From NCBI GenBank assembly GCA_963780475.1, contig CAWACB010000001.1:5897-69896 (forward strand): 64,000 bases of DNA, in the 5' to 3' direction. A model generated the notes under the pieces. The model was not told where the DNA came from. It did no database searches and was given only the letters and a program-made list of their open reading frames with translations. Position 1 is the stretch's first letter. Each line of letters opens with the position of its first letter. Positions 9,446 through 58,741 of the stretch are shown one piece after another. The position numbers were made by a program, and so were the translations under genes. The DNA comes from an uncultured Solirubrobacterales bacterium (GTDB lineage Bacteria > Actinomycetota > Thermoleophilia > Solirubrobacterales > JBBDJG01).

Positions 9446-11026
9446 CTACTCGACCGAGACGACGGCACCGTCCCGGCGTGGATCCCCGGCCCCACTCAGC
9501 GCTCCGGTCTCCAGATCCCGCTTCACGGCCTGGGCCCCGCCGAAGTACACGTTCGGGCTCTTCCACCTGACCAGCCGGTAGCCGCGGCGCTCGAGCTCCC
9601 CGAGCACCTGCGGGTCAAAGCCGGGCTCGGCGTGCAGGACGCCCGCCTCGTAGTGCAGGCGGCCGCGCTCGACCGCGTCCGAGACGGTCGCGCCCCCGTC
9701 GATGACGTGGCGGATCACCTGCAGGATCGCCGAGCGCAGGCGGTTGGAGCCCGCGCTCCCCAGAGACAGCTCGATCTCGCCGTCGCGCAGCACGGTCGTG
9801 GGCGCCATCATGCTCGTCACCCTCGTGCCGGGGTCGTGGCGGTGGAAGCCGAGCGGGTTGAGGTCCTCCTCGCCCAGCATGTTGTTCAGGTGGACTCCTG
9901 TGCCCGGAACCACGACACCGGAGCTGGTGCCGTTCGAGCAGGTGATCGCCGCCGAGTTGCCCGCCTCGTCGATGACGGACAGGTGGGTGGTCGAGCCGAG
10001 GTTGGCCGCCGGCTCTCCCTGCTTCGCGGCGGCGCCTGCCGTCACCGCCCGCTCGATGCGCCCGGCGGCAGCGCTGACGAGCCCGTCCGAGAGGAACCAC
10101 TCCGCCAGCCGAGGCTCGTGCAGCCGCAGGTGGAAATCGCCCTCCCGTGCCCGGTTCGTCTCCCCCATGACCTCGGTCAACAGGGCGAGGGCGTCGGGCT
10201 CCGCAAGGTCGCCCGTGTGCGTCCGCTCGAGCAGCGCCAGCGCGAAAGCGATCAGGACCCCGCCCGACGACGGCGGCGCGTTGGTCAGCATCTCGCGGCC
10301 GCGGTACGCGGTGCGGACCGGTTCGCGCTCGATCACCCGGTAGGCCTCCAGGTCGGCCGTCGAGATCATCCCGCCGCGGCTGGTCACCCACTCGCAGATC
10401 GTGCGCGCGGTCTCCCCGCGGTAGATCGAGTCCGGACCCTCGGCCGCCAGGCGCTCGAGGGCCTCCGCCACTTCGGGGAACCGGATCTGCTCGCCCTCCT
10501 CGAGCATCCGGCCGGCCGGCGCATACAGCGCACGGGCCTCGGGCTCTGCGGTGATCACCGGCTCGAGCAGGTTGAACAGGTAGGCCTGCATCCGCTGGAC
10601 CGGCACGCCGTCGCGCGCGTACCGCACCCCCGGGCGGGCAAGCTCGGTCAGCGGCATCGTGCAGAACCGCTCCGCGATCTGGCTCACCCCCGCGGGGATC
10701 CCGGGCACCCCGCACGAGGCGGGGCCGACGTTGAAGATCTGCGGCACCTCGTCGAAGCGGACCTCCGCCGCGACCAGGCTCGCGCGGGCGTCCGGATCGA
10801 GGCCGCGGCCGCCGGACTCGACGAAGAAGTCCAGCAGGTGGTCCTCGCCGTCGGCGGTGCGAGCGAGCATGAACCCGCCCGCGCCGAGGCCGGTCAGCAG
10901 GCTCTCGGCGGTGAACGACGCCAGCATCGCGCTGACCGCGGCGTCGAACGCGTTGCCGCCCTCGCGCAGGGCCCAGGCCCCCGCCTCGGCGGTCAGCTCG
11001 GAACCGGCAGCGATCACGCCCTTCAT
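9446..11026 (-). CDS. ggt: Gamma-glutamyltransferase
   Basis: GGNAFDAAV, GLGAGGF, PPSSGG, STTHLSVID (Thr nucleophile) and LNNMLGE. Confidence 0.9.
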   Translation of the reverse strand: MKGVIAAGSELTAEAGAWALREGGNAFDAAVSAMLASFTAESLLTGLGAGGFMLARTADGEDHLLDFFVESGGRGLDPDARASLVAAEVRFDEVPQIFNVGPASCGVPGIPAGVSQIAERFCTMPLTELARPGVRYARDGVPVQRMQAYLFNLLEPVITAEPEARALYAPAGRMLEEGEQIRFPEVAEALERLAAEGPDSIYRGETARTICEWVTSRGGMISTADLEAYRVIEREPVRTAYRGREMLTNAPPSSGGVLIAFALALLERTHTGDLAEPDALALLTEVMGETNRAREGDFHLRLHEPRLAEWFLSDGLVSAAAGRIERAVTAGAAAKQGEPAANLGSTTHLSVIDEAGNSAAITCSNGTSSGVVVPGTGVHLNNMLGEEDLNPLGFHRHDPGTRVTSMMAPTTVLRDGEIELSLGSAGSNRLRSAILQVIRHVIDGGATVSDAVERGRLHYEAGVLHAEPGFDPQVLGELERRGYRLVRWKSPNVYFGGAQAVKRDLETGALSGAGDPRRDGAVVSVE

Positions 11027-11046
11027 GGGCGCAGCGTAGTTCCTAT

Positions 11047-11077
11047 CTGCCGACTGCCGACTGCCGTCTGCCGACTC
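11047..11077. repeat. Heptamer tandem repeat (CTGCCGA), about 4 copies, between ftsZ and ggt
   Basis: ctgccga ctgccga ctgccgt ctgccga ctc. Confidence 0.8.
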
Positions 11078-11086
11078 CCAACCGCG

Positions 11087-12499
11087 TCAGCGGTTGGGAA
11101 CGAACTCGGGAATCTCGAAGTCGTCCGAGAGCTCCCGGTCGTTGCGGCGCACGCGCGGCTGGTCGGCGGGCTCGCCCAGGCGCCCGCTCGTCGAGCGGCG
11201 CGTCGGGCGGTCCCCGTAGCCGGTCGCGACCACGGTCACCCAGCACTCGTCGCTGATCTTCTCGTCGATCATCGCGCCGAAGATGATGTTCGCGCTGGGG
11301 TGTGCCGCTTCCGCGACTGCCCGGGCGGCCTCGTTGACCTCCCACAGCGAGAGGTCTGCGCCGCCGGTGATCGACAGCAGGATCGACCGCGCACCCTCGA
11401 CCGAGGTCTCGAGCAGCGGCGAGGACACGGCCTCCTCCGCGGCGGAGATCGCCCGGCGCTCGCCGCGCGCCATGCCGATGCCGAGCAGCGCCTGACCGGC
11501 GTCGCTCATGATCGTGCGCACGTCCGCGAAGTCGAGGTTGATCAGGCCCGGCAGCGTGACCAGGTCCGAGATGCCCTGCACACCCTGGCGCAGGACGTCG
11601 TCGGCGACCCGGAAGGCGTCCACCATCGAGGTGCCCTTCTCGAGCACCGTCAGGAGCCGGTTGTTGGGGATCACGATCAGCGTGTCGACGTGCTTGGCCA
11701 GCTCGCCGACGCCCTCGTCGGCCTGGATCCCACGCCGGGTGCCCTCGAAGCCGAACGGCTTGGTCACGATGCCGACCGTCAGCGCGCCGATCTCCTGGGC
11801 GATCCGGGCGACCACCGGCGCGGCGCCGGTGCCCGTCCCGCCACCCTCGCCGGCGGCGACGAAGACCATGTCCGACCCCTTCAGCATCGACTTGATGCGG
11901 TCGTCGTCGGAGATCGCCGACGCGCGGCCGATCGACGGGTCCGAGCCGGAGCCCAGCCCGCGCGTGATCTCGGAGCCGATGTGGAGCGTGGTGTCGGCGG
12001 CGCTCTGCTGGAGCGACTGCAGGTCGGTGTTGACGGCGATGAACTCGACGCCCTCGACACCTGCCTCGATCATCCGGTTGACGGCATTGACGCCGGCCCC
12101 ACCGACTCCGGCCACCTTCAGGACCGGGCGCACCACGGTCGTGGAACGCCGGATCTCCGGCTCGTCGCGGGGCCGCCACTCGCGCTCGGTCGACTCGGGG
12201 CGGGCCAGGATGTCCTCGGGAATGTCCTGCGCGAAGGCCGCGCTGAGGCGGTCCTTCGGGCTGAGGTTGCGGCGGCGCTCGACGCGCTCCTCCTCCTCGC
12301 GCAGGGCGCGCGCGTCCTCGGCGCGGCGCTCCTCGCGCTCTCGCCGGGCGGCCTCTTCCTCGCGAGCGCGGGCGGCGCGCTCCTCGGCGTTCTCGATGTC
12401 GGGCGCCTTGGGCTGGCCCTCCTGCGGCTCGACGTCGGTCCGCTGGAACAGGGCGGCCAGCGGCCCTTCCCGCATGCTTGCTCGCTTACCGCCTGCCAT
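11087..12499 (-). CDS. ftsZ: Cell division protein FtsZ with a ~120-aa N-terminal extension
   Basis: KVAGVGGAGVNAVNRMI, NTDLQSL, GEGGGTGTG tubulin signature, INLDFADV T7 loop and C-terminal DDFEIPEF; ATG at 12499 overlaps the parA 3' end. Confidence 0.95.
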   Translation of the reverse strand: MAGGKRASMREGPLAALFQRTDVEPQEGQPKAPDIENAEERAARAREEEAARREREERRAEDARALREEEERVERRRNLSPKDRLSAAFAQDIPEDILARPESTEREWRPRDEPEIRRSTTVVRPVLKVAGVGGAGVNAVNRMIEAGVEGVEFIAVNTDLQSLQQSAADTTLHIGSEITRGLGSGSDPSIGRASAISDDDRIKSMLKGSDMVFVAAGEGGGTGTGAAPVVARIAQEIGALTVGIVTKPFGFEGTRRGIQADEGVGELAKHVDTLIVIPNNRLLTVLEKGTSMVDAFRVADDVLRQGVQGISDLVTLPGLINLDFADVRTIMSDAGQALLGIGMARGERRAISAAEEAVSSPLLETSVEGARSILLSITGGADLSLWEVNEAARAVAEAAHPSANIIFGAMIDEKISDECWVTVVATGYGDRPTRRSTSGRLGEPADQPRVRRNDRELSDDFEIPEFVPNR

Positions 12500-13493
12500 T
12501 GGCCAGGACCTCCTTCGCAAGTTCGCGGTAGGACTGCGCCGCAACGCCGTCGGGATCGTACTTGAGCACCGAGGTGCCCTTGACCGGCGCTTCGGCGAAT
12601 CGGATGGTCTTCTTGATGCGAGTGGCGAACACGCGGTCGCCGAAATTCTCCTCGAGGATCTCGATCGCCTCCTTGGCGTGGACGGTGCGGGTGTCGACCA
12701 GGGTCGGCAGGATGCCCTCGATCTGGACCTCCGGGTTCAGCTCCTCCCGGATCATCGCCAGAGTGTTCTGAAGCTGGATCAGCCCCCGCATCGACAGATA
12801 CTCACACTGAACGGGGACGATAACTTTGCTGGCGGCTGTCAGCGCGTTGATGGTCAGAAGGCCGAGCGACGGCGGCGTGTCGATGCACACGAAGTCGTAG
12901 TCGTCGGACACCGCCTTGAGCGCCTTCTCCAGGGACCGCTCGCGGCCGATCTTGGTGCTCATCGCGATCTCGGCGCCGGCCAGGTCGATCGAGGCGCAGG
13001 CGACGTCCACCTCGCGCTTGCGGACCGCTTCGCGGATCGGCATCCCGTGGACCAGCACGTCGTACATCGACTTGTCGACCTGGTCGGGGTCGATTCCCTG
13101 GCTCATCGTCAGGTTGCCCTGCGGGTCCATGTCGACCGCCAGCACCCGGTGGCCCTTCTCGGCCAGCGCCACGGCCAGGTTGAGCGTCGTGGTGGTCTTG
13201 GCCACCCCGCCCTTCTGGTTGGCGAAGGCGAACACCTCCATGGTGTCCTGCGGCGCGGGCTGTGGCGGCGCAGCGCTCTGGGGCGGCACCTGCGGCGGCA
13301 TCTGCGGGTGGCCGTTGGCCCCATTGGGTTGCGGAGCGGACTGCGGAGTGGCCTCCCTCGCCTCCTGGTCGTTGGCGGGCGGTGAAGCCTCGAAGCCGGA
13401 CACTGTGTCCCCTCCTTGTTGGTCCGCGTCCCGCTCGTCCGCCGGCTGGGCCGGCTGGTATTCGGGTCGCGCGAATCGCTGGAGTAAACCCAT
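12486..13493 (-). CDS. parA: ParA/Soj family ATPase (orphan) with a Pro/Gln-rich N-terminal region
   Basis: NQKGGVAKTTT deviant Walker A, VDMDPQGN, IDTPPSLGLLTINAL, PVQCEY and YRELAKEV. Confidence 0.93.
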   Translation of the reverse strand: MGLLQRFARPEYQPAQPADERDADQQGGDTVSGFEASPPANDQEAREATPQSAPQPNGANGHPQMPPQVPPQSAAPPQPAPQDTMEVFAFANQKGGVAKTTTTLNLAVALAEKGHRVLAVDMDPQGNLTMSQGIDPDQVDKSMYDVLVHGMPIREAVRKREVDVACASIDLAGAEIAMSTKIGRERSLEKALKAVSDDYDFVCIDTPPSLGLLTINALTAASKVIVPVQCEYLSMRGLIQLQNTLAMIREELNPEVQIEGILPTLVDTRTVHAKEAIEILEENFGDRVFATRIKKTIRFAEAPVKGTSVLKYDPDGVAAQSYRELAKEVLANGRR

Positions 13494-13563
13494 GGCGGAT
13501 GGTTATTCGCACAAGGTGCGGGTAATCCTTCCGGCGATACCCTCACCTTCGACCTTGGCCTCC

Positions 13564-14505
13564 ATGCTCGACAAGCGCTTGATCTTCGTCACCGGCAAGG
13601 GCGGCGTCGGCAAGTCGACCGTCGCCGCCGCGCTGGGCGTGGCCGCGGCGCGGCGCGGCAAGCGCACGATCGTCTGCGAGGTGGCCGCGCAGGAGCGGAT
13701 GTCCGGGGTGTTCCACAAGCAGAGAGTCGGCTACCACGAGACGCGGATCGCCGAGAACCTCTACGGCTTCTCGGTCGACCCGCAGCGCGCGCTGGAGGAG
13801 TACCTGCTGCAGCAGATTCGCGTGAAGCCGCTCTACGACATGCTGTTCAAGAACCGGGTCTTCACCTATTTCGCCGCTGCAACGCCGGGCATGCGCGAGC
13901 TGGTCACGATCGGGAAGGTCTGGGAGCTGGCGCAGCTCGACCGACGGGTGAAGAAGGCGCCCAAGTACGACGTCGTGATCGTCGACGCGCCTGCCACCGG
14001 ACACGGCCTCGGGATCCTGCGCACGCCCAAGACCTTCGGCGACATCGCGCGCGTCGGGCCGATCAAGCGCCAGGCGGATGCGATCCACGAGTTCATCACC
14101 GACCCGAAGCTGACCGCCATCTGCGCCGTTGCCTGGCCCGAGGAGATGCCCGTCAACGAGACGCTCGACCTCCAGCGCAGCCTGCGCAAGGACCTCGGGA
14201 TGAAGCTGTCCCAGGTCTACATGAACGGGCTCTACCCCGAGCTCTTCTCCGACCGCGAGGCGCAGGCGATGCGCGGCCACCTGCAAAGAAACGGCAGCGA
14301 GAGCGGCGACGTTGCCGCGCTGCGGCGCGCTGCGGTCCGCGCGGCCGTCTCCGAGCACCGCCGCGCCAAGGCGCACCGCGAGCAGCTCGAGCGCTTGCAA
14401 GACGGCACCCGACAGCCCGTCGTCGAGCTGCCGTTCCTGTTCACCGAGCAGATCGACATGGAGGCCGTCGGGGAGCTGGCCGACGACCTGGAGCCCTCGC
14501 TGTGA
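13564..14505 (+). CDS. ArsA/Get3-like ATPase, first of a pair (Rv3679-like)
   Basis: FVTGKGGVGKST, PGMRELVTIGK, VDAPATGH and PEEMPVNET; ATG at 13564. Confidence 0.9.
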   Translation: MLDKRLIFVTGKGGVGKSTVAAALGVAAARRGKRTIVCEVAAQERMSGVFHKQRVGYHETRIAENLYGFSVDPQRALEEYLLQQIRVKPLYDMLFKNRVFTYFAAATPGMRELVTIGKVWELAQLDRRVKKAPKYDVVIVDAPATGHGLGILRTPKTFGDIARVGPIKRQADAIHEFITDPKLTAICAVAWPEEMPVNETLDLQRSLRKDLGMKLSQVYMNGLYPELFSDREAQAMRGHLQRNGSESGDVAALRRAAVRAAVSEHRRAKAHREQLERLQDGTRQPVVELPFLFTEQIDMEAVGELADDLEPSL

Positions 14506-15687
14506 ACGTCGCCGACGCCCTGCGCGAGAAGGAGGTGTGCATCTGCGCCGGCTCGGGCGGCGTCGGCAAGACGACCACGTCGGCGGCGATCGCAATGGGG
14601 ATGGCCGCGCAGGGCAAGAAGGTCGCCGTGCTGACGATCGACCCCGCCAAGCGCCTCGCGAACTCCCTCGGCCTGCCGGAGCTCGGCAACGAGGAGACGC
14701 TCGTCGACCCGGCCCGGTTCGCCGAGCACGGCATCGAGATGAAGGGCGAGCTGTGGGCGATGATGCCCGACGCCAAGCGCACCTTCGACGACCTCGTCGA
14801 GCGCCACGCGCCGGACGAGGAGACCCGCGACCGGATCCTCTCGAACCGGATCTACCAGGAGCTCTCGAACGCGATGGCCGGGTCACAGGAGTACATGGCC
14901 ACGGAGAAGCTCTACGAGCTGTATCAGGAGGCGCGCTACGACCTGCTGGTCCTGGACACGCCGCCGACGCGCAACGCGCTCGACTTCATCGACGCCCCGG
15001 AGCGGATGACCCGCTTCATCGAAGGCCGCTCGCTGCAGTTCTTCCTCAAGCCCGGCAAGCTCGGGATGCGCATCGTCGGCCGCTCGGGCGGCATGCTGTT
15101 CTCGGTCCTGAAGCGGATCACGGGCATCGACCTGCTCCAGGACCTGTCCGAGTTCTTCCAGAGCTTCGGCGACATGGCCCAGGGCTTCAGCGAGCGCGCC
15201 CAGCGCGTCGCCGAGCTGCTGGCCGACGACGTGACCACCTTCCTGCTGGTGACCGCGCCCGAACGCGAGCCGATCGACGAGGCGGTCTACTTCTGGCGCC
15301 GGCTACAGGAGTCCCGGCTGCCGTTCGGAGGCGTCGTCGTCAACAAGGTGCATCACGACTATCTGCAGGTGACGGGAGGCGGGAGGCGGGAGGCGGGAGA
15401 CCGTAGTGAGTCGCTCCCAGCGGAGCTGGAGAAGACGTTCGAGGGTGTCGGACGTTCCGACCTTCCGGAGCGGATCGTCGAGAACTTCGAGCGCTACCGC
15501 GCGCTGGCGGCGCGCGACCGCGAGAACATGGTCGCGCCTCACCGAGCGCCTCGACCAGGAGAGCGTGATCGAGGTCCCCTACCTGGACGAGGACGTGCAC
15601 GACCTCGGTGGCCTGGCGCACGTCAACCGCTACCTGTTCGCCTCCTCGGCGGAGCGAAAAGAGCTGCTGGCGAGCGTCGCGGTTTAG
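14502..15687 (+). CDS. ArsA/Get3-like ATPase, second of a pair (Rv3680-like; frameshift near 15535)
   Basis: GSGGVGKTT, TIDPAKRLA, QEYMA.EKL and LDTPPTRNALDF; the C-terminus VPYLDEDVHDLGGL is in frame 15406..15687; GTGA overlap with the upstream gene. Confidence 0.9.
15374..15401. repeat. Heptamer tandem repeat (GGGAGGC)3 GGGAGAC inside the second ArsA-like CDS
   Basis: gggaggc gggaggc gggaggc gggagac, read as part of TGGGRREAGD. Confidence 0.8.
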
Positions 15688-15693
15688 GGCGAG

Positions 15694-17127
15694 CTAGACG
15701 GCGGCCGAGTAGTCCGCGGCGTCCTCGTCGAGGAGCGCGTCCATCTCGCCCGTGAGCGGCTCGACGGGCTGCTCGGCGGCTGGTCGTTCAGGCGTGGGTT
15801 GCTCGGCGGGTTCGCCGGGAGAGCGCCGCACGACGTAGTGCGGCTCCGGTGCCGCGACCTCGTGCCGCCCGGTCGGCTCGGCGAGGATCTCGTCCGCAAC
15901 CGAGCGCAGGTCGGCCGGCAGGTGGCCGGCGATGGCGTCGCGCAGCAGGGCCCGCAGGTCGGCTTCCAGGTCCCGCACCAGCGCCTCGGGCGAATCCACC
16001 CCGTTCGTGGCCAGGAACCCCGCCTCGAGGTCGCCCCGCATCACGAGCCGTTCCAGGTTGAACGCGGCCTCGGTGCGCATCTGAACGGCGCGCTGGTCGG
16101 CCGGCTCGGCGCACAGCGCCGCCAGCCGCAACGCGACGCCGACCGCCGGCGGCTCGCCGGCGTCGAGCAGCGCCCGCGCCGCGAGCAGATAGTCGGAGAG
16201 GCCGTCCAAGGCGACCGGCTGCTCGCAGCCGAGCTCGAATCGCGACAGCGCCCAGGACAGGGAGCCGCGCATCGCCCGGCCGAGCCGCAGCAGCTCGAAG
16301 ATCTCCATCAGCTCCGATCGCTCGTCGGGCTCCAGCAGGTAGGGGTTGCCGCGCGAGCGCCCGGAGAAGCCCAGCGGCACGGCCTGCCACGGCCCGGTGT
16401 CGGTGCGCCACCAGGCAGACGGGCCCAGCGACGCCGCGCCCGGCTTCAGCAGCCGGACCGCGCTGAGCAGCTTGCGGAAGCACATGCGCGCCTCGGTCAG
16501 CGGCGCCGACTCCTCGGGTCGCGCCTCGGCGGTCAGGACGAGGATGGTGTTCGGCTCGTCGTCCTCGCGGCCCGATGCCCAGACCGCCTCGGGCGGTGCA
16601 TCGAAGAGGTCTCCGCGCACGAGCGCCAGACCCGACCCGAGCTCCCAGCGCTCGGCGGCCAGCGACACGCCGATCAGCGGCGCGACGACCGTGTTGATGA
16701 TCGTGTCCTCGAACACGATCGACTCCAGCTCGAGATAGGCGCGGTCGAAGCGGGCTGATTCGAACTCGAGCGTCGTGGAGTCCTCCCACATGCGCGCCAG
16801 GAACTCGCGCAGCGCAGCCTCGGCACGATCACGCTGGGAGGCGGGCACATACGAGGCACCGAGCACCCGCAGGTATGCGGAGCAACCCTCGATCGCCGTC
16901 AGGCCCTCGACCGCGGGGGCGAACGTGGCCAGGTCGCGCAGGCCGGGCAGCCGCTCGCGCACGAACTGCGCCGACAGCGGGCTGTAGTGGTAGAGGACCG
17001 AGCGCGAGCCGGGCTTCTCGGCGACCTCGAAGGGGATCTCCGCGCCACCCTCGAGCTCCGTCGCGAGCCGGGCAGACGCCTGGACGGCCAGCGCCCGCAG
17101 TCTCTCGTTCAGCTCCTTGTTGCGCAC
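15694..17127 (-). CDS. Hypothetical protein with a C-terminal ApeA/HEPN-like helical region lacking the RxxxxH motif
   Basis: 477-aa ORF with natural composition; ALSRF...DYLLAARALL...LRLAAL...AFNLERLVMRG follows the ApeA-type HEPN pattern. Confidence 0.7.
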   Translation of the reverse strand: MRNKELNERLRALAVQASARLATELEGGAEIPFEVAEKPGSRSVLYHYSPLSAQFVRERLPGLRDLATFAPAVEGLTAIEGCSAYLRVLGASYVPASQRDRAEAALREFLARMWEDSTTLEFESARFDRAYLELESIVFEDTIINTVVAPLIGVSLAAERWELGSGLALVRGDLFDAPPEAVWASGREDDEPNTILVLTAEARPEESAPLTEARMCFRKLLSAVRLLKPGAASLGPSAWWRTDTGPWQAVPLGFSGRSRGNPYLLEPDERSELMEIFELLRLGRAMRGSLSWALSRFELGCEQPVALDGLSDYLLAARALLDAGEPPAVGVALRLAALCAEPADQRAVQMRTEAAFNLERLVMRGDLEAGFLATNGVDSPEALVRDLEADLRALLRDAIAGHLPADLRSVADEILAEPTGRHEVAAPEPHYVVRRSPGEPAEQPTPERPAAEQPVEPLTGEMDALLDEDAADYSAAV

Positions 17128-51827: not shown

Positions 51828-54800
51828 TCAGCAGCCGCCTCCGTTGTTGTACTTGTCCAGCGCGTCCTTGAGCGCGATGGCCAGATTGCGCTGGTTGGCG
51901 CTCAGGTTGTATGTCGCGGCCGGCCCGGTGTAGTTGACGCCGGTTGCCGTGATGCCCGCGTACGTGACGCTCTGTGCCTTCAGGAACGCATCGGTCTTGT
52001 CGACGACCCCCTGGATGCAGGCGTCGCTGCCGTTCTTGACGTTGAACTTCGTCGCCAGCAGGTGTCCGCCCAGACAGCCGATTGCGTCGAGCGCAGAGCT
52101 GCTCGAGCAGTTCATGCCGTTGAACACCGACGTCGCCTTCGCGAACGTGTTCACGTTGTAGTTGCCGAGCGGATCGGCAGCAGCGTCGTGGCCTGCTGCT
52201 GGTGGTTCTTCCAGTAGCCCGGGGTGAGCGGAGCGGTTCCCGGCCTGCACGGTCACGGTCTCGTCGCCGCACTTGCTGGTGAGCGGCGCGACGTTCCCGT
52301 TGCCCTTGTAGTTCGCGATCCAGTAGTACGTGCCGGGGGTCGTGAACTTGATCCGAATCGGATGCCGCAGCGACGTTCCCGGCCCCGACGGTCTTCATCC
52401 CCGCGGTCGCGAACAGCGTCGTGCACTTGTTGTCCGTGTAGACCTTGTAGGAGACCTGGCCGCCGGCGTTGGCCGGAGCGCCGACCAGCGTCGCGACGTC
52501 ACGCACCCACGTGTTCGGCCCGACGGTGATCTTGGCGCCCGTCGGCTGCCGCCCATGCTCGTCAGGTTCGTCGTGATCGTGAAGTCGTCATTCGTGACGG
52601 TGCAGTACTTGGTCTGCCCGACAGCGATGCTGCCGGTGCAGTCCGCCGAGAAGCTGCCCGCGTAGCCGTTCACGGTGCTCTCGGTGACGCCGTAGTTGCC
52701 GGCGTTCAGACCCACGTTGGTGCCCGCGGAGCTGCCCGCGAAGCTGCTCGGGCTCGGGCTACTGCCGGTCACGGTCATCGTGAAGTCGGAAGGCTGCTTG
52801 GTGCCGCCGTTGTTGTTGACGACCAGCTTCTTCACGACCAGCTTCGGCTGGATGTCGTTGTTCGTGACCGTGCAGGTCTTGGTCTGCGCCGAGCGCGAGC
52901 GTGCCCGAGCAGTCGGCCGAGTAGGCTCGGCGTAGCCGGACACCGCCGCCCTCGGAGACCGAGTAGCTGCCCGCGTCGACCGTCACCTCGGTGCCGGGCG
53001 ACTCCGCGCCGGGGAACGACGGCGGGTCGGTGCCCGGGTCGTTCACGGTCATCGTGAAGTCGCCGGCGCTGCGTCGGCCGCCGTTGTCGTTGATCACGTG
53101 CTTGATCACGGTCAGCTTCGGCGCGATGTCGTTGTTGGTGATCGTGCAGGTCTTGGTCTCGCCGGCGAGCGCGAGGGTACGTTGCCGCGCGTCGCAGTCG
53201 CCCGAGTAGCGTCTGCGGAGTAGCCGGCGACGGCCGCCTCGCTGACCGTTGTAGGTGCCGGGGTCGAGCGTGTAGGTCGGTGCCGGCGACTCCGGCCCGC
53301 CTGCGGGCTGCCGGCTGACATCGGTGCCGCCGCTCTTGACGTGCATCGAGAAGTCGCTGGCGGCTTCGTCCCGCCGTTGTCGTTGATCGACGTGCTTGAT
53401 CACCTTCAGCTTCGGCGCGATGTCGTCGTTGGTGATCGTGCAGGTCTTGGTCTGCCCGATCGCGATCGTGCCGTCGCAGTCAGCCGAGGGGGTGGCCGCG
53501 TAGCCGTCCGGGCCGTCCTCCGTCACCCCGTAGGCCCCGGCGTCGAGCGTGACTGCGTGCCGGGCGACTCCGCGCCGGGGAACGAGTCGTCGCTCGGGTT
53601 GACGGCGTCGATGATCATCGTGAATTGCGCTGCCGTCGCCGTGCCGCCGTTGTCGTTGATCACGTGCTTGATCACGTTCAGCTTCGGCGCGATGTCGTCG
53701 TTGGTGATCGTGCAGGTCTTGGTCTCCGGCGACGCCAGGGTGATCGTTGCCGCTCGCGTCGCAGTCGCCCGAGTAGGTCGCGGCGTAGCCGGCGACGGCC
53801 GCCTCGCTGACGTTGTAGGCGCCGGGGTCTGAGCGTGTACGGTGGTGCCGGTCTCCGCGCCCGCCTGCGGGCTGCCGCTCGACGTCGGTGCCGCCGCTCT
53901 CGACGTGCAGCGAGAAGTCGCTCGGCTCGAGCGTGCCGCCGTTGTCGTTGACGACGTGCTTGATCACGTTCAGCTTCGGCGCGATGTCGTTGTTGGTGAT
54001 CGTGCAGGTCTTGGTCTGGCCGACGGCGATCGAGCCGGAGCAGTCGGCCGAGTAGCGTCTGGCGTAGCCGGCAGGCCGCCTCGGCCGACCGTGTAGGCGC
54101 CGGCGTCGAGCGTGACCTGGTGCCGGCCTCCTCGCCCGGGAACGAGTCGTCGCTGGCGTTGGTGCCGGTCGACGTTCATCGTGAAGTCGCCGGCGTCGGC
54201 GTCGCCGCCGTTGTCGTTGATCACGTGCTTGATCACGGTCAGCTTCGGCGCGATGTCGTCGTTGGTGATCGTGCAGGTCTTCGTCCTGGCCGACGCGCGA
54301 TCGAGCCGGCGCAGTCAGCCGAGTAGGTCGCGGCGTAGCCGGCGACAGGCCGTCCTCGGTGACCTGTAGGCGCCGGCGTCGAGCGTGACGTCGGTGCCGG
54401 CCTCGGCACCCGGGAACGAGCGTCGCTGACGTTGGTGCCGCGTCGACGTTCATCGTGAAGTCGCCGCGCTCGGCGTGCCGCCGTTGTCGTTGATGACGTC
54501 TTGATCACGGTCAGCTTGGCCGCGATCGTCGTCGTTGGTGACGGTGCAGGTCTTGGTCTGGCCGAGCGCGATCGTGCCGGCGCAGTCAGCCGAGTAGGTC
54601 GGCGGTGTAGCCGGCGACCGGGTCCTCGGTGACGCTGTAGGCGCCCGCGTCGAGGGTCACGTCGGTGCCGGGGCTGTCGGCGCCCGGGAAGTTGTCGGGG
54701 CTGTCGTCGGTGCCGCCCGAGTCGAGCGTGAAGTCATCGGACTCGAGCGTGCCGCCGTTGTCGTTGACGACGTTCTTGATCACGGTCAGCTTGGCCGCGA

Positions 54801-57800
54801 TCGTCGTTGTTGGTGACGGTGCAGGTCTTGGTCTGGCCGATCGCGATGTTGCCGGCGCAGTCAGCCGAGTAGCTCGGCGGTGTAGCCGGCGACCGGGTCC
54901 TCGGTGACGCTGTAGGCGCCCGCGTCGAGGGTCACGTCGGTGCCGGGGCTGTCGGCGCCCGTGAAGTTGTCGGGGCTGTCGTCGGTGCCGCCCGAGTCGA
55001 GCGTGAAGTCATCGCGACTCGGCGTGCCGCCGTTGTCGTTGACGACCTTCTTGATCACGGTCAGCTTGGCCGCGATCGTCGTTGTTGGTGACGGTGCAGG
55101 TCTTGGTCTGGCCGAGCGCGATGTGCCGGCGCAGTCAGCCGAGTAGGTCGGCGGTGTAGCCGGCGACCGGGTCCTCGGTGACGCTGTAGGCGCCCGGGTC
55201 GAGGGTCACGTCGGTGCCGGGGCTGTCGGCGCCCGTGAAGTTGTCGGGGCTGTCGTCGGTGCCGCCCGAGTCGAGCGTGAAGTCATCCGACTCGAGCGTG
55301 CCGCCGTTGTCGTTGACGACCTTCTTGATCACGGTCAGCTTGGCCGGATCGTCGTTGTTGGTGACGGTGCAGGTCTTGGTCTGGCCGAGCGCGATGTTGC
55401 CGGCGCAGTCAGCCGAGTAGGTCGGCGGTGTAGCCGGCGACCGGTCCTCGGTGACGCTGTAGGCGCCCGCGTCGAGGGTCACGTCGGTGCCGGGGCTGTC
55501 GGCGCCCGTGAAGTTGTCGGGGCTGTCGTCGGTGCCGCCCGAGTCGAGCGTGAAGTCATCCGACTCGAGCGTGCCGCCGTTGTCGTTGACGACCTTCTTG
55601 ATCACGGTCAGCTTGGCCGGATCGTCGTTGTTGGTGACGGTGCAGGTCTTGGTCTGGCCGAGCGCGATGTTGCCGGCGCAGTCAGCCGAGTAGCTCGGCG
55701 GTGTAGCCGGCGACCGGGTCCTCGGTGACGCTGTAGGCGCCCGCGTCGAGGGTCACGTCGGTGCCGGGGCTGTCGGCGCCCGTGAAGTTGTCGGGGCTGT
55801 CGTCGGTGCCGCCCGAGTCGAGCGTGAAGTCATCGGACTCGAGCGTGCCGCCGTTGTCGTTGACGACCTTCTTGATCACGGTCAGCTTGGCCGGATCGTC
55901 GGTGTTGGTGACGGTGCAGGTCTTGGTCTGGCCGAGCGCGATGTTGCCGGCGCAGTCAGCCGAGTAGCTCGGGGTGTAGCCGGCGACCGGGTCCTCGGTG
56001 ACGCTGTAGGCGCCCGCGTCGAGGGTCACGTCGGTGCCGGGGCTGTCGGCGCCCGTGAAGTTGTCGGGGCTGTCGTCGGTGCCGCCCGAGTCGAGCGTGA
56101 AGTCATCGGACTCGAGCGTGCCGCCGTTGTCGTTGACGACCTTCTTGATCACGATCAGCTTGGCCGGATCGTCGGTGTTGGTGACGGTGCAGGTCTTGGT
56201 CTGGCCGAGCGCGATGTTGCCGGCGCAGTCAGCCGAGTAGCTCGGGGTGTAGCCGGCGACCGGGTCCTCGGTGACGCTGTAGGCGCCCGCGTCGAGGGTC
56301 ACGTCGGTGCCGGGGCTGTCGGCGCCCGTGAAGTTGTCGGGGCTGTCGTCGGTGCCGCCCGAGTCGAGCGTGAAGTCATCGGACTCGAGCGTGCCGCCGT
56401 TGTCGTTGACGACCTTCTTGATCACGATCAGCTTGGCCGGATCGTCGGTGTTGGTGACGGTGCAGGTCTTGGTCTGGCCGAGCGCGATGTTGCCGGCGCA
56501 GTCAGCCGAGTAGCTCGGCGGTGTAGCCGGCGACCGGGTCCTCGGTGACGCTGTAGGCGCCCGCGTCGAGGGTCACGTCGGTGCCGGGGCTGTCGGCGCC
56601 CGTGAAGTTGTCGGGGCTGTCGTCGGTGCCGCCCGAGTCGAGCGTGAAGTCATCGGACTCGAGCGTGCCGCCGTTGTCGTTGACGACCTTCTTGATCACG
56701 ATCAGCTTGGCCGGATCGTCGGTGTTGGTGACGGTGCAGGTCTTGGTCTGGCCGAGCGCGATGTTGCCGGCGCAGTCAGCCGAGTAGCTCGGGGTGTAGC
56801 CGGCGACCGGGTCCTCGGTGACGCTGTAGGCGCCCGCGTCGAGGGTCACGTCGGTGCCGGGGCTGTCGGCGCCCGTGAAGTTGTCGGGGCTGTCGTCGGT
56901 GCCGCCCGAGTCGAGCGTGAAGTCATCGGACTCGAGCGTGCCGCCGTTGTCGTTGACGACCTTCTTGATCACGATCAGCTTGGCCGGATCGTCGGTGTTG
57001 GTGACGGTGCAGGTCTTGGTCTGGCCGAGCGCGATGTTGCCGGCGCAGTCAGCCGAGTAGCTCGGGGTGTAGCCGGCGACCGGGTCCTCGGTGACCTGTA
57101 GGCGCCCGCGTCGAGGGTCACGTCGGTGCCGGGGCTGTCGGCGCCCGTGAAGTTGTCGGGGCTGTCGTCGGTGCCGCCCGAGTCGAGCGTGAAGTCATCG
57201 GACTCGAGCGTGCCGCCGTTGTCGTTGACGACCTTCTTGATCACGATCAGCTTGGCCGGATCGTCGGTGTTGGTGACGGTGCAGGTCTTGGTGACGCCCG
57301 CCTCAATCGTGCTGTCACAGTCCCCCGAGTAGCTCGCCGTGTAGCCGGCGGGTCCGGTCTCGGTGACGTCGTACGCGTAACCGTCGACGAAGGTATTGGT
57401 GGTGCCGGGACTCTCCGCGCCGGCGAACGTCGTGTCGTCGGTGTCCTGGAGGTCCATCGTGAACTGACCGGCAGTCGCAGTGCCGCCGTTGTCGTTGACC
57501 ACGTGTTTGATCACCGTGATCGAGCCGGTCTGCAGGTCATTGGTGATCGTGCACTCGGTGATCGTGCTCGCCTGGACGGTGAAGTTCGCGAGTCCAGGGA
57601 ACACGTTGTAGTCCGTCCCGTCAGTGGTGCACGAAATGCTCTGCAGCGCATATGTCGGACTCGGGTCCGCCTCAGAGAGCGTGTAGTTGGTGCCGGTCTT
57701 CAGGTCGGAAACCAGATCGGAGTCCCCGTCGAAGGTCAGCGTGCCGGTCGCCGTCGTCGCTCCGCTGTACTTGATCGCGGACATGTCGGACCGCTTCAGC

Positions 57801-58741
57801 GTGTAAGCGAACGTGCCCGTCCCGTCCTCCGGATCGGTGTCCTTCGTCACCCGGACAAAACCGCAGTTGGAGATCGCGGTGCCCGAGAAGTCGCCCAGGA
57901 CGACGTCCTTGAAGTCGGCCTGGTCGGAGTTGCCGGTGATGGTCGCGGGGATGACGTTCGCGACGGTGAAGCAGGACGTCGGGTTTTCACCGAAGATTGT
58001 CGCGGTCAGATCGACCGCGCCCTCACCGAACAGCCCGTCGTCCGCCGCGGCGGCCTCCGAGACGGTGTTGTCGAGCTCGGTGCCCGCGCCGAATCCCGAG
58101 CCGCTGAATGTTCGATGCACGATCTCAAGCGACTGGCCCTGCGTGTCGAAGACCAGCGCGAAGTCACCGTCAGCACGGTTCTGCCAAGGGTTGCATGTGT
58201 CGATCAGGTTCTGAGCGGCGGCATTGGCCGGGGGCGTCAGAGAGGCGCCCGTGTAGTCGCACGCGGCAGGGCGGGCGTTCTGCTGGAACTCGAACAAGAC
58301 CTGCCCGGTGCTGTCGGCCTCGCGCTCGAAAGCGAAGTAGAGCCACACGTGTCCGGTGTTCGGATCGACCCTCGTGTCGAGGTAGACGCCGCCGAGGTCC
58401 TGCCCAGGAGTGATCGACGTGTAGCCGAGCGTAGGCAGCACGTCGTCGTGGATGTTCCCGAGCTTGGTGGTGGAGCCCTGCTCCGCTCCCAGCTCACTGC
58501 TGTTGCCGGACGGGTCCGTATAGAAGGCGGCGCCAGCGTCCGGGTCGTCACCATCAATCGTGTAGCCGCCGCTCGCGGCACGGGCGGAGCCGGGCGCGAA
58601 CAGCAGTAGCGTCGCCGCTACAGCCAGCGCAAGCAGGACCAGGTGTGAGGCGACTCGTCGGGCGAACGCTCCGGCGTCGTCGCGCAGCACGATGGTGCTG
58701 CGGACATTCCTGCCGAAGAGGAACGCTCGACCGTTACCCAT
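51828..58741 (-). CDS. Very large secreted repeat protein with about 18 prealbumin/SpaA-like Ig domains (multiple frameshifts)
   Basis: Signal peptide ending SARA, unique N-terminal domain, repeats KL.VIK.V.NDNGG...YS.DC.G....G.TKTCT.TN, C-terminal TPGYWKNH-type domain; no LPXTG seen. Confidence 0.85.
54527..57290. repeat. Ten near-identical 273-bp (91-aa) tandem repeats within the large surface protein gene
   Basis: The unit encoding DDFTLDSGGTDDSPDNF recurs ten times at 272-275 bp spacing. Confidence 0.95.

What the first reader, a model, noticed from the sequence alone, without database searches (positions are those of the whole stretch)
11087..13493. Orphan ParA coupled to an FtsZ with a ParA-partner-like N-terminal extension: candidate division-site positioning system
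Seen: parA overlaps the start of ftsZ, and there is no parB, ftsA, ftsQ, sepF or mur gene nearby. The FtsZ has an intact GTPase core, T7 loop and C-terminal EIPEF tail. In front of the core sit about 120 extra residues: a basic amphipathic peptide (KRASMREGPLAALFQRT), an E/R/A-rich predicted coiled coil and a linker. Known: FtsZ normally starts close to the GTPase domain and lies in the dcw cluster. ParA ATPases are stimulated by short basic N-terminal peptides of a partner encoded just downstream (ParB LGRGLxAL type). Orphan ParAs such as Corynebacterium PldP and Myxococcus PomZ affect septum placement. Inference: the partner peptide is fused directly to FtsZ, so a ParA gradient on the nucleoid could position Z polymers without adaptors. 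This may be a second, specialised FtsZ.
Basis: partly seen in the sequence, partly recalled or inferred. Interest (0 to 1): 0.85.

Follow-up and report, generated by a model that had tools for sequence, protein, structure and literature searches.

The report
ParA paired with peptide-tagged second FtsZ
A soil actinobacterium (class Thermoleophilia) carries, besides its normal division gene ftsZ, a second ftsZ that has an almost invariant 20-residue N-terminal tag and is always encoded overlapping an orphan ParA ATPase, which suggests an undescribed way of placing the division ring.

Summary
Window 12486-13493(-) encodes a Soj-like ParA ("ParA-Z"). Window 11087-12499(-) encodes a complete FtsZ ("FtsZ2", 470 aa) whose ATG overlaps the parA stop by 14 nt and which has about 126 residues in front of the GTPase core. 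The genome has a second, ordinary FtsZ next to an FtsQ-type gene on another contig, and a separate soj-parB pair.

The pair is conserved across the class. ParA-Z lies directly upstream of 74 of 75 distinct FtsZ2 starts. The peptide profile matched 164 of 201 Thermoleophilia genomes and 0 of 278 other Actinomycetota. FtsZ2 forms one clade (SH-aLRT 96).

Only the first ~21 residues (KRASMREGPLAxLFRxT) are conserved, with synonymous codon turnover. The linker varies from about 20 to over 150 residues, and the E/R/A helix is specific to this genome.

Best reading (0.55): the peptide is an N-terminal ParA-activating/binding peptide grafted onto an FtsZ paralog, so nucleoid-bound ParA-Z positions FtsZ2 polymers. 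Binding is inferred, not shown. The peptide has no profile-level similarity to this genome's ParB N-terminus. I found no description in print. I rate it a new variant of the ParA/MinD positioning systems.

The parts
12486..13493 (-). parA-Z: orphan Soj-like ParA ATPase, 335 aa. The N-terminal ~84 aa are P/Q-rich and low in complexity. The core is residues ~85-335, with the deviant Walker A KGGVAKT.
   Evidence: ORF. Pfam AAA_31 at 201.8 bits. No NCBIfam equivalog over its cut-off. Own clade, SH-aLRT 99. 65-91% identical in relatives.
12509..12516 (-). Shine-Dalgarno-like GAAGGAGG inside the end of parA, 9 nt before the ftsZ2 ATG.
   Evidence: Read directly from the sequence.
11087..12499 (-). 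ftsZ2: second FtsZ paralog, 470 aa plus stop. Its ATG overlaps the parA stop by 14 nt.
   Evidence: TIGR00065 at 415.4 bits. One clade of 68 rows, SH-aLRT 96.
12437..12499 (-). Conserved N-terminal peptide, residues 1-21 (MAGGKRASMREGPLAALFQRT). Proposed ParA-Z contact and activating peptide.
   Evidence: R6 M9 R10 E11 G12 P13 L14 L17 F18 T21 are invariant in 50 of 50 sequences. Synonymous turnover across 58 DNA versions. Unique in the genome's six-frame translation: 42.8 bits, next hit 8.6.
12269..12388 (-). E/R/A-rich single long helix, residues 38-77. Specific to this genome; part of the variable linker.
   Evidence: AF2 helix H38-77, pLDDT 86-91. Relatives have P/E/Q/A-rich stretches of different length here.
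12218..12265 (-). Second motif LSPKDRLSAAFAQDIP, residues 79-94. Conserved within the order only.
   Evidence: A3 consensus PxPxERLxxAFSxDIP. Seen in the order's loci. Absent from the short-linker forms of other families. AF2 helix 81-90.
11219..12118 (-). FtsZ GTPase domain and C-terminal domain, residues 128-427.
   Evidence: Pfam Tubulin and FtsZ_C. G-box and T7-loop residues are invariant in 49 FtsZ2 sequences. AF2 pLDDT is mostly above 85.
11090..11125 (-). C-terminal peptide DDFEIPEFVPNR, the FtsZ tail that binds membrane anchors in other bacteria.
   Evidence: P464 is invariant and F466 is at least 90% conserved in FtsZ2. FtsZ1 ends in a similar DIPEFLKD.

Best explanation
This is a two-gene module specific to the class Thermoleophilia. 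It consists of an orphan Soj-like ParA ATPase (ParA-Z) and, translationally coupled to it, a second polymerisation-competent FtsZ (FtsZ2). FtsZ2 carries a short, basic, nearly invariant N-terminal peptide on a variable disordered linker.

Proposed mechanism:
1. ATP-bound ParA-Z dimers sit on the nucleoid.
2. The FtsZ2 N-terminal peptide binds them and stimulates ATP hydrolysis, as the N-terminal peptides of ParB, MinE, ParG and PomX do for their ATPases.
3. FtsZ2 polymers are multivalent, so they behave as ParA cargo and are moved or held relative to the nucleoid.
4. FtsZ2 shares about 63% core identity and the same C-terminal tail with the dcw-encoded FtsZ1, so it seeds or steers the division ring.

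Shown here: the gene pair, its overlap, its class-wide conservation, the single origin of FtsZ2, selection on the peptide, the intact GTPase, and ParA-Z as a distinct paralog.

Inferred: peptide-ParA-Z binding, ATPase stimulation, nucleoid binding, co-assembly with FtsZ1, and the role in division-site placement.
For: Gene structure
- The ATG overlaps the parA stop by 14 nt and a GGAGG lies 9 nt upstream.
- The genome has 2 FtsZ genes. The other follows an FtsQ-POTRA ORF.

Conservation of the pair
- 41 of 41 genomes of the order match FtsZ2, and at least 39 show both the long and the short form.
- ParA-Z is immediately upstream in 28 of 30 loci; the other 2 are cut by contig ends.
- It is upstream of 74 of 75 distinct FtsZ2 starts (70 found, 4 recovered); the last has only 15 nt of flank.
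- 67 of the 70 junctions measured overlap by 4-29 nt.

Distribution of the peptide
- The peptide profile matches 164 of 201 class genomes.
- 4 of 5 non-matching genomes inspected still have the pair, with a diverged peptide.
- In the phylum sample all 21 of 301 matches were class members, and 0 of 278 genomes outside the class matched.

Selection on the peptide
- 10 residues are invariant in 50 of 50 sequences, while the linker is unconserved and can shrink to about 20 aa.
- Codon-position entropy is 0.27/0.19/1.22 over 58 DNA versions.
- The peptide starts at residue 1 in 142 of the 150 best of 1106 representative proteins.

Phylogeny and paralogs
- FtsZ2 is one clade (96) and ParA-Z is one clade (99), separate from the ParB-adjacent Soj clade (99).
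- 9 of 10 relatives and the window's own genome have three ParA paralogs.

Other support
- ParA-Z keeps KGGVAKT, DTPPS and DxRT.
- MinC was found in 0 of 21 relatives.
- AF2 shows the peptide and linker as low-confidence and flexible in front of a confident core.
Against: - No binding evidence of any kind was obtained.
- A profile of 56 peptide variants did not detect this genome's ParB N-terminus (GMGRGLAAIL) among 1533 hits at E<=1000. The 'ParB-type' likeness is therefore visual only.
- The peptide has few basic residues (K5, R6, R10, R19/K20). Its LxxLF helix could equally be a membrane-binding or other protein-binding motif.
- ParA-Z DNA binding is assumed from conserved arginines whose role I recall from Soj work; it was not tested.
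- Co-assembly of FtsZ2 with FtsZ1 is untested.
- No cultured-organism data or phenotype exists.
- The single genome lacking FtsZ2 (G090, 92% complete) also lacks ParA-Z. The genes are adjacent, so this could be one missing contig.
Confidence: 0.55

Rival explanations
1. The N-terminal peptide is not the ParA contact. It is a membrane-targeting amphipathic helix or the docking site for a different partner, such as a protease adaptor, a kinase (KRxS) or a divisome protein. ParA-Z would then act on FtsZ2 through the GTPase core, as MipZ does on FtsZ, or only share an operon with it.
For: - The PLAALFR(K/R)T segment has an i, i+3, i+4 hydrophobic face flanked by basic residues, and AF2 predicts a short helix at 15-19.
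- There is no profile similarity to ParB's N-terminus.
- N-terminal or C-terminal amphipathic helices that tether FtsZ to membranes appear in titles and abstracts listed (Odinarchaeota, Mycoplasma).
- Pfam MipZ scores 50.9 bits on ParA-Z.
Against: - Membrane helices usually conserve character, not sequence. Here SMREGP, outside the helix, is invariant in 50 of 50 sequences.
- The strict gene overlap and co-occurrence with ParA-Z make ParA-Z the simplest partner.
- The MipZ match covers only positions 3-137 of the 262-position profile and is far weaker than AAA_31 at 201.8 bits.
Confidence: 0.25
2. The ParA-Z/FtsZ2 pair is a positioning or segregation machine for something other than the division ring. 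Examples are nucleoid organisation, a storage or compartment structure, or a developmental septum. FtsZ2 filaments would act as cargo or track independently of FtsZ1.
For: - FtsZ2 lies outside the dcw cluster.
- Its conserved neighbours are a gamma-glutamyltranspeptidase and BagAB-like ATPases rather than division genes.
- ParA-type ATPases position many cargos (PMC7993993 passages). The PldP preprint abstract links an actinobacterial orphan ParA to Tat dynamics.
Against: - FtsZ2 keeps the full FtsZ signature, including the C-terminal anchor-binding tail shared with FtsZ1.
- It is only moderately diverged, at about 63% core identity to FtsZ1.
- It sits inside the actinobacterial FtsZ radiation, unlike dedicated segregation tubulins.
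Confidence: 0.17
3. Artefact. Either the extension is untranslated, with a true start near the GTPase domain, or it is a separate gene fused by an assembly error in this indel-prone MAG.
For: This assembly does contain frameshifts: ftsZ1, soj in two frames, the ParB C-terminus and gcvT/gcvP.
Against: - The same in-frame architecture is found in 75 distinct loci from many assemblies, including single-contig genomes.
- Third-codon-position turnover with invariant residues shows translation in this frame.
- Independent gene calls start at the peptide in 142 of 150 representatives.
Confidence: 0.02

Closest known systems
ParA/MinD ATPase plus activating protein (AAP) systems that place the division ring: PomXYZ of Myxococcus (PomX N-terminal peptide), MinCDE, MipZ-ParB
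   Same: A ParA-family ATPase is paired with a partner that carries a short, conserved, charged N-terminal peptide on a flexible stretch, and the output is on FtsZ. PomX residues 1-22 suffice to activate PomZ, with K13 and R15 essential (PMC7993993, passages).
   Different: Here the peptide sits on an FtsZ paralog itself, so no adaptor (PomX/PomY, MinC, ParB) lies between the ATPase and the polymer. There is no sequence homology to PomX, MinE or ParB peptides (ParB was tested). MinC was found in 0 of 21 relatives. No activity has been shown.
Chromosomal Soj/ParA-ParB-parS
   Same: ParA-Z is Soj-like: 169-173 bits to the chains 1wcv/2bek ('segregation protein') and 152-156 bits to the Soj chains 6iub/8jmj. 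It has a deviant Walker A and a conserved DxRT. Its partner is encoded immediately downstream.
   Different: The downstream gene is ftsZ2, not parB. The genome has its own soj-parB elsewhere. ParA-Z and ParB-adjacent Soj are separate clades, each with support 99. Identity between them is only 41-46%.
Actinobacterial orphan ParA of the PldP type (Corynebacterium glutamicum PldP; PDB 4pfs/5if9/5ihp chains, labelled 'cobyrinic acid a,c-diamide synthase')
   Same: The best PDB match is 206 bits, and that chain shares KGGVAKTT with ParA-Z. The DxRTxH signature is shared with 3 of 3 non-Soj actinobacterial ParAs sampled, one of them next to scpA, and with none of 14 Soj. RFAEA/RFAES was detected in 2 of those 3, and no Soj row showed it where the motif was detected. 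Deleting pldP gives a moderate division phenotype (abstract).
   Different: ParA-Z is not next to scpA: scpA is on C4 with no ParA beside it. The tree does not join ParA-Z to the scpA-adjacent pair. No FtsZ partner is known for PldP. That 4pfs is a PldP-type protein is my recollection, not a call.
Other FtsZ paralogs and FtsZ N-terminal peptides (Hyphomicrobiales truncated FtsZs, Anabaena FtsZ N-terminal peptide, archaeal and plastid FtsZ1/FtsZ2)
   Same: A lineage-specific ftsZ duplication and a conserved lineage-specific N-terminal peptide (PMC6175996 abstract; 10.1101/2025.09.29.679267 passages).
   Different: None of those is described as encoded overlapping a ParA ATPase. The Hyphomicrobiales paralogs are truncated, whereas FtsZ2 is full length with its C-terminal peptide.

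Membership tests
FtsZ (TIGR00065 / Pfam Tubulin + FtsZ_C) | Whole-protein score above the curated cut-off | tested here: met
   TIGR00065 at 415.4 bits against 295.2. PF00091 at 150.8 bits and PF12327 at 111.1 bits.
FtsZ (TIGR00065 / Pfam Tubulin + FtsZ_C) | GTP-binding G-box GGGTGxG and T7 synergy loop NxDxxD | tested here: met
   GGGTGTG and NLDFAD are present and invariant in 49 of 49 FtsZ2 sequences.
FtsZ (TIGR00065 / Pfam Tubulin + FtsZ_C) | Conserved C-terminal peptide after a disordered linker | tested here: met
   The protein ends in DDFEIPEFVPNR. The A3 consensus is DxDVPEFxP. pLDDT is below 50 for residues 432-470.
Canonical division FtsZ (dcw cluster copy) | Location next to ftsQ/ftsA/mur genes | tested here: not met
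   The neighbours are parA, ggt and bagAB-like genes. The dcw-type copy is on contig C4.
Chromosomal ParA/Soj of ParABS | Deviant Walker A with signature lysine (KGGxxK[ST]) | tested here: met
   NQKGGVAKTTT is invariant in 50 of 50 sequences.
Chromosomal ParA/Soj of ParABS | Cognate parB encoded downstream | tested here: not met
   The downstream gene is ftsZ2. The only ParB_N match is on C5, beside another ParA.
Chromosomal ParA/Soj of ParABS | Groups with ParB-adjacent Soj in a tree | tested here: not met
   The two are separate clades, each with SH-aLRT 99. This was a quick tree of 37 rows.
MinD | Score over the TIGR01968 cut-off, and presence of MinC | tested here: not met
   53.8 bits against 212.9. 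MinC_C was found in 0 of 21 relatives, 19 of which are at least 90% complete.
MipZ | Full-length match to PF09140 as the best family | tested here: not met
   50.9 bits over profile positions 3-137 of 262, against AAA_31 at 201.8 bits.
ParA/MinD ATPase-activating protein (functional class, not a homology family) | Short conserved N-terminal peptide with basic residues, on a flexible linker, on a self-assembling or cargo domain | tested here: met
   K5 is at least 90% conserved and R6 and R10 are invariant. The linker is variable and of low pLDDT. The FtsZ core is intact.
ParA/MinD ATPase-activating protein (functional class, not a homology family) | Encoded adjacent to its ATPase | tested here: met
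   74 of 75 distinct loci.
ParA/MinD ATPase-activating protein (functional class, not a homology family) | Binds the ATPase and stimulates ATP hydrolysis | not testable with these tools
   This needs biochemistry. The structure-prediction attempts are listed under Tried and rejected.
ParB-type N-terminal peptide (LGRGLxALL, motif recalled) | Detectable sequence similarity to ParB N-termini | tested here: not met
   The peptide HMM does not hit the genome's ParB N-terminus among 1533 hits at E<=1000.
PldP-type actinobacterial orphan ParA | Shared sequence signatures, scpA neighbourhood, common clade | tested here: inconclusive
   DxRTxH is shared with 3 of 3 sampled orphans and RFAEA/RFAES with 2 of 3. 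The best PDB hit is 4pfs/5if9. However, there is no scpA adjacency and no joint clade.

The most novel reading that the evidence does not exclude
FtsZ2 is a cytoskeletal polymer that carries its own ParA-activating peptide, so it is a self-positioning cargo. A nucleoid-bound ParA-Z ratchet places FtsZ2 filaments directly, without PomXY-, MinC- or ParB-like adaptors, and these filaments seed the FtsZ1 ring. This would be the minimal ParA-based division-site system. ParA-Z shares signatures with PldP-type orphan ParAs, whose partners are still unclear, so it could also indicate what that widespread actinobacterial ParA acts on. The invariant Ser8 and Thr21 in a KRxS context might additionally allow the contact to be switched by phosphorylation.
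Probability: 0.4. Interest if true: 0.88.

Novelty: new variant of a known kind. Interest (0 to 1): 0.78.

Why it matters
How bacteria without Min or nucleoid-occlusion systems find midcell is an open question, and it is sharpest in Actinomycetota. This locus offers a compact, testable candidate: two genes and a peptide of about 20 residues, conserved across a whole, abundant but barely studied soil class.

If the peptide activates ParA-Z, the modular 'N-terminal peptide grafted on any domain' rule for ParA/MinD activators would extend to the cytoskeletal polymer itself. That would give the simplest known link between the nucleoid and the Z ring. It would also supply a natural reagent (peptide plus ATPase) for in-vitro reconstitution. 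If the peptide does something else, it is still an unexplained, strongly selected tag on a conserved second FtsZ.

Tried and rejected
1. Complex prediction. I submitted the ParA-Z core as two copies with ATP and Mg, plus FtsZ2 residues 1-40, each with my own 50-row alignment. The verdict was 'no answer': score 0.00 in both runs and the controls were not folded. It is not evidence either way.

2. AlphaFold2 of a database protein in which ParA and the peptide are fused by a read-through or frameshift (P0025, aligned with P0046 and 30 ParA rows). Peptide-region pLDDT was about 50-55, so there was no confident docking. The result is uninformative: the model is a monomer, the tool returns no contact read-out, and the sequence is an artefact. 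A first alignment that also held the peptide fragments (A4) was misaligned by MAFFT onto ParA columns, and I abandoned it.

3. ParB-likeness of the peptide. The profile search of the six-frame genome gave no match to ParB, so I rejected it as a statistical claim.

4. Alternative architectures carrying the peptide. P0025, P0046, P0033 and P0057 are frameshifted or chimeric sequences, with arginine-rich out-of-frame tails or an ABC-transporter fragment. Among the top 150 of 1106 representatives, most are short fragments or frameshifted, and only 8 of the 22 that are 170 aa or longer show the G-box. I found no convincing non-FtsZ cargo, but fragments cannot exclude one.

5. Metatranscriptome contigs. 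All 8 listed runs held only small shares (0.05-0.09). I laid 4 of the 8. Most pieces are 88-95% alike, meaning relatives or other organisms. One contig of an RNA library (run X3, record 14, 211 nt, 2 differences over 167 nt) spans 12433-12599, which is the parA/ftsZ2 junction. Contigs cannot show a single transcript and DNA carry-over is possible, so this is a weak hint only.

6. Promoter and terminator scan of 10800-13900. It found 0 promoter-like sites and 1 terminator-like site on the + strand inside parA, about what is expected by chance.

7. FtsA. PF14450 matches exist in 21 of 21 relatives but lie away from both ftsZ genes and may be other actin-like proteins. I draw no conclusion.

8. 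Co-loss. G090 lacks both genes. The genes are adjacent and the genome is 92% complete, so this is not independent evidence.

9. The careful ParA tree did not finish in time, so the quick tree is reported.

10. Literature. Searches found no paper on a Thermoleophilia FtsZ paralog or a parA-ftsZ pair. 'FtsZ' plus 'Thermoleophilia' gave 2 papers, both unrelated by title and abstract. PMC9871819 holds none of my five search terms. A survey's supplementary tables could list this paralog without my seeing it.


Full report
OBSERVATION

On the minus strand, the ORF listing gives a 335-aa ORF at 12486..13493 and an FtsZ ORF at 11087..12544. Pfam assigns the first to AAA_31 (1.1e-59) and CbiA, the ParA/Soj type. 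It assigns the second to Tubulin (7e-44) and FtsZ_C (3.3e-32). NCBIfam ftsZ TIGR00065 scores 415 bits against a cut-off of 295.

The DNA shows GAAGGAGG at 12516-12509, then 9 nt, then ATG at 12499. The parA stop, TAA, is at 12488-12486. The two genes therefore overlap by 14 nt in the arrangement typical of translational coupling. From this ATG the protein has 470 aa (P0001) and begins MAGGKRASMREGPLAALFQRT.

The G-box GGGTGTG, the T7 loop NLDFAD and the tail DDFEIPEFVPNR are all present. The GTPase core begins near residue 127. AlphaFold2 with a 49-row alignment gave mean pLDDT 76.5. It shows residues 1-9 disordered, a short low-confidence helix at 15-19, a long helix at 38-77 (pLDDT 86-91), a helix at 81-90, a disordered stretch at 91-126, a confident core at 127-427 and a disordered C-terminal linker.

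Neighbouring genes are a DJ-1/PfpI protein, a Lon substrate-binding-domain protein, gamma-glutamyltranspeptidase (directly downstream), two divergently transcribed ArsA/BagA-BagB-like ATPases and a 477-aa ORF with no family.

THE REST OF THE GENOME

The window is C1:5897-69896 of a 3.2-Mb, 9-contig assembly rated 74% complete. It has exactly two Tubulin-family matches: the window gene and one on C4. The C4 copy lies directly downstream of an ORF with an FtsQ-type POTRA domain. It starts close to the GTPase domain and ends DIPEFLKD. It is the ordinary division FtsZ, which I call FtsZ1.

In this assembly FtsZ1 carries a one-base frameshift inside the NAV(Q)RM motif. Other genes are also broken: gcvT and gcvP, soj (two frames) and the ParB C-terminus. 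I read these as assembly indels, because FtsZ1 is intact in the relatives (open frames of 355-440 aa without stops).

The only ParB_N match is on C5, beside that soj. SepF is on C4. ScpA is on C4 with no ParA beside it. A third ParA-like gene is on C8.

CONSERVATION

Order level. Among 41 genomes of the same order (6 families, 19 genera, own genome included), all match FtsZ2. At least 39 show both a long form aligned from residue 1-5 and a short form aligned from about residue 105-133. The two exceptions are assemblies that are 52% and 76% complete. tblastn on the 30 returned loci finds ParA immediately upstream in 28, and the other two are cut by contig ends.

Taxon. Named public records place the group in Thermoleophilia: MAGs labelled Solirubrobacterales, Solirubrobacteraceae, Thermoleophilaceae, Gaiellaceae and Gaiellales.

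Peptide alignment. Fifty N-termini (A1) have R6, M9, R10, E11, G12, P13, L14, L17, F18 and T21 invariant. K5, A7, S8 and R19 are at least 90% conserved. Nothing is conserved in the next 25 residues.

Class and phylum level. A profile of A1 matches 164 of 201 genomes sampled from the class at E<=0.01, and 149 of 179 high-quality ones. Of five non-matching genomes that I inspected, four have the parA-ftsZ2 pair with a diverged peptide (RPSMKDGLSELFRRTD, RSSMKDSGLSFLFRA, KSSLKNSGLADLFRG). One, G090 (92% complete), has a single FtsZ and also lacks ParA-Z. In a phylum-wide sample, all 21 of 301 matches were class members and 0 of 278 genomes outside the class matched.

Linker. In other families of the class the linker shrinks to about 20 residues (for example MAERPSMRDGLSELFRRTDVAGQASDGEPEQIIKGRPYVTTIKVAGVGGAG). 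In the order it varies in length and is mostly P/E/Q/A-rich. The E/R/A helix of this genome is therefore not part of the conserved design. A second motif, (I/V)P(S/T)P(K/E)ERLxxAFSxDIP, is conserved in the order only.

Junctions. Over all stored loci, excluding those of the two unpublished genomes, there are 75 distinct FtsZ2 starts. ParA-Z is directly upstream of 74 (70 found, 4 recovered). The last has only 15 nt of flank. Of the 70 junctions measured, 67 overlap by 4-29 nt (39 of them by 14 nt), and three have gaps of 24, 52 and 242 nt.

IS THE EXTENSION TRANSLATED?

There are 58 distinct DNA versions of the 17-codon core. Mean column entropy is 0.27, 0.19 and 1.22 bits at codon positions 1, 2 and 3. 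Gly12 and Pro13 each use all four codons, and Arg10 and Leu14 use five each. This is purifying selection on the protein in this frame.

In the library of 1.84 billion representatives, 1106 proteins match the peptide profile at E<=0.001. In 142 of the best 150 the match begins at residue 1, so independent gene calls choose the same start. The 'fusion by sequencing error' and 'untranslated' refutations fail.

PHYLOGENY

FtsZ tree. The quick tree has 126 FtsZ core rows and 301 columns. Four short HSPs were dropped, and the loci of the unpublished genomes were left out. All 68 FtsZ2 rows fall in one clade (SH-aLRT 96). Thermoleophilia FtsZ1 groups loosely with Rubrobacter FtsZ (support 82). Other Actinomycetota form their own clade (100). 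The order of these three groups is unresolved. I read this as one old duplication, at or before the base of the class.

ParA tree. The quick tree has 37 rows; the careful run did not finish. ParA-Z forms a clade (99), ParB-adjacent Soj forms a clade (99), and a third Thermoleophilia paralog forms a clade (100). A pair of non-Soj ParAs from other Actinomycetota, one of them next to scpA, forms a clade (97). Relations among these are unresolved. Nine of ten relatives and the own genome have three ParA paralogs.

PDB matches. The best matches are 4pfs/5if9 (206 bits, labelled by the depositors 'cobyrinic acid a,c-diamide synthase'). They score ahead of the 'segregation protein' chains 1wcv/2bek (169-173 bits) and the Soj chains 6iub/8jmj (152-156 bits). 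The 4pfs chain shares the unusual KGGVAKTT with ParA-Z.

Signatures. DxRTxH occurs in ParA-Z and in 3 of 3 non-Soj actinobacterial ParAs sampled, but in none of 14 Soj. RFAEA/RFAES was detected in 10 of 11 ParA-Z rows and in 2 of those 3 non-Soj ParAs. The Soj rows in which the motif was detected read RVSEA, RVAEA or RLSEA. This suggests, without proving, kinship with the PldP type of orphan ParA.

MECHANISM

Established background (PMC7993993, passages read): ParA/MinD ATPases are activated by partners that are unrelated in fold but share a short N-terminal stretch rich in positive charge. The peptide alone can suffice (PomX 1-22, Spo0J 1-20, MinE 1-22). The authors describe such activators as modular, with the peptide grafted onto an interaction domain.

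FtsZ2 has exactly this anatomy: a conserved basic N-terminal peptide, a flexible spacer, a self-assembling domain, and a gene immediately downstream of and overlapping its ATPase. ParA-Z keeps the nucleotide motifs. It also keeps the DxRT and R-F-A-E-A arginines that, by my recollection of Soj work, contact DNA. MinC was found in 0 of 21 relatives.

I therefore propose that nucleoid-bound ParA-Z-ATP captures the FtsZ2 N-terminal peptide and is turned over by it. FtsZ2 filaments would then be positioned relative to the nucleoid and, through co-assembly with FtsZ1 or shared anchors, guide the ring. I put this at 0.55. Everything after 'conserved pair with a selected peptide' is inference.

EVIDENCE AGAINST AND LIMITS

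The peptide is not detectably ParB-like. An HMM of 56 variants finds only FtsZ2 in the six-frame genome (42.8 bits, next hit 8.6). It does not list the ParB N-terminus (VAERGMGRGLAAIL) among 1533 hits.

The LxxLF helix with flanking basic residues could instead bind membrane or another protein, which is the first rival (0.25). The neighbourhood (ggt downstream in most loci of the order and some Gaiellales; bagAB-like genes upstream in the order) is not a division neighbourhood. That leaves room for a non-division cargo role (0.17).

The structure-prediction attempts gave nothing usable and are listed under Tried and rejected. There are no experimental data for any member.

COMPARISON AND NOVELTY

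Functionally, the closest systems are PomXYZ, MinCDE and MipZ-ParB, in which a ParA-family ATPase controls FtsZ placement. The difference is that here the putative activating peptide is part of an FtsZ paralog, with no adaptor.

By homology, FtsZ2 is a true FtsZ (all family features met except dcw location). ParA-Z is a Soj-like ParA that fails the ParABS, MinD and MipZ membership tests.

Literature searches found no description of this pair. [quoted passage not shown] I rate it a new variant of a known kind, interest 0.78.

Unpublished genomes G002 and G225 appear in the tool tallies.

Noticed in passing
G000 contig C4, locus L004 about 10560-10700 (- strand); also L005 (C5) and L004 4500-9300: The assembly is prone to indels. 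The canonical ftsZ1 has a one-base frameshift (an extra T in GTTTCAG inside NAV-QRM). soj is split over two frames, the ParB C-terminus is out of frame, and gcvT and gcvP are in pieces. This probably contributes to the 74% completeness estimate.
   Followed up: partly
window 13552-14505 (+) and 14502-15755 (+): A pair of ArsA/Get3-fold ATPases lies divergent from parA-Z. Their best NCBIfam hits are the mycobacterial BagA (164 bits) and BagB (315 bits), both below the equivalog cut-offs. The pair is found upstream of parA-Z in many loci of the order.
   Followed up: partly
window 9446-11026 (-): Gamma-glutamyltranspeptidase lies 60 nt downstream of ftsZ2. It occupies this position in most Solirubrobacterales-type loci and in some Gaiellales loci. 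It may be a third operon member; its function in this context is unknown.
   Followed up: partly
window about 11040-11085 (- strand intergenic, ftsZ2 to ggt): Short tandem copies of GGCAGTC/GGCAGAC (…GTCGGCAGACGGCAGTCGGCAGTCGGCAG…) sit between the ftsZ2 stop and the ggt start.
   Followed up: no
window 12489-13253 (ParA-Z core): Two ParA-Z segments, YLSMRGLIQL and EGILPTLVDTRT, resemble the FtsZ2 peptide (SMREGPLAALFRRT) closely enough that MAFFT aligned the peptides onto them. This may be coincidence or mimicry of a ParA surface. It is unexplained.
   Followed up: no
window 12489-13493; PDB chains 4pfs/5if9: ParA-Z has Ala in the Walker A motif (KGGVAKT) where Soj has Gly. This is invariant in 50 of 50 sequences and shared with the PDB chain 4pfs/5if9.
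   Followed up: partly
G000 C8:645149-645862 (L117/L178): A third ParA paralog (KGGTGKT, DPQGNLSDYFDV) forms its own clade in the order (support 100). In the own genome a short-chain dehydrogenase-like ORF follows it. Its partner is unknown.
   Followed up: no
window 15694-17127 (-): A 477-aa ORF with no Pfam or NCBIfam family at the thresholds used.
   Followed up: no
window 52001-58000: Strongly negative AT skew (-0.26 to -0.33) with positive GC skew (up to 0.15), unlike the rest of the window.
   Followed up: no
window 12433-12599: A 211-nt contig from a soil metatranscriptome library (run X3) matches with 2 differences over 167 nt, across the parA-Z/ftsZ2 junction.
   Followed up: partly
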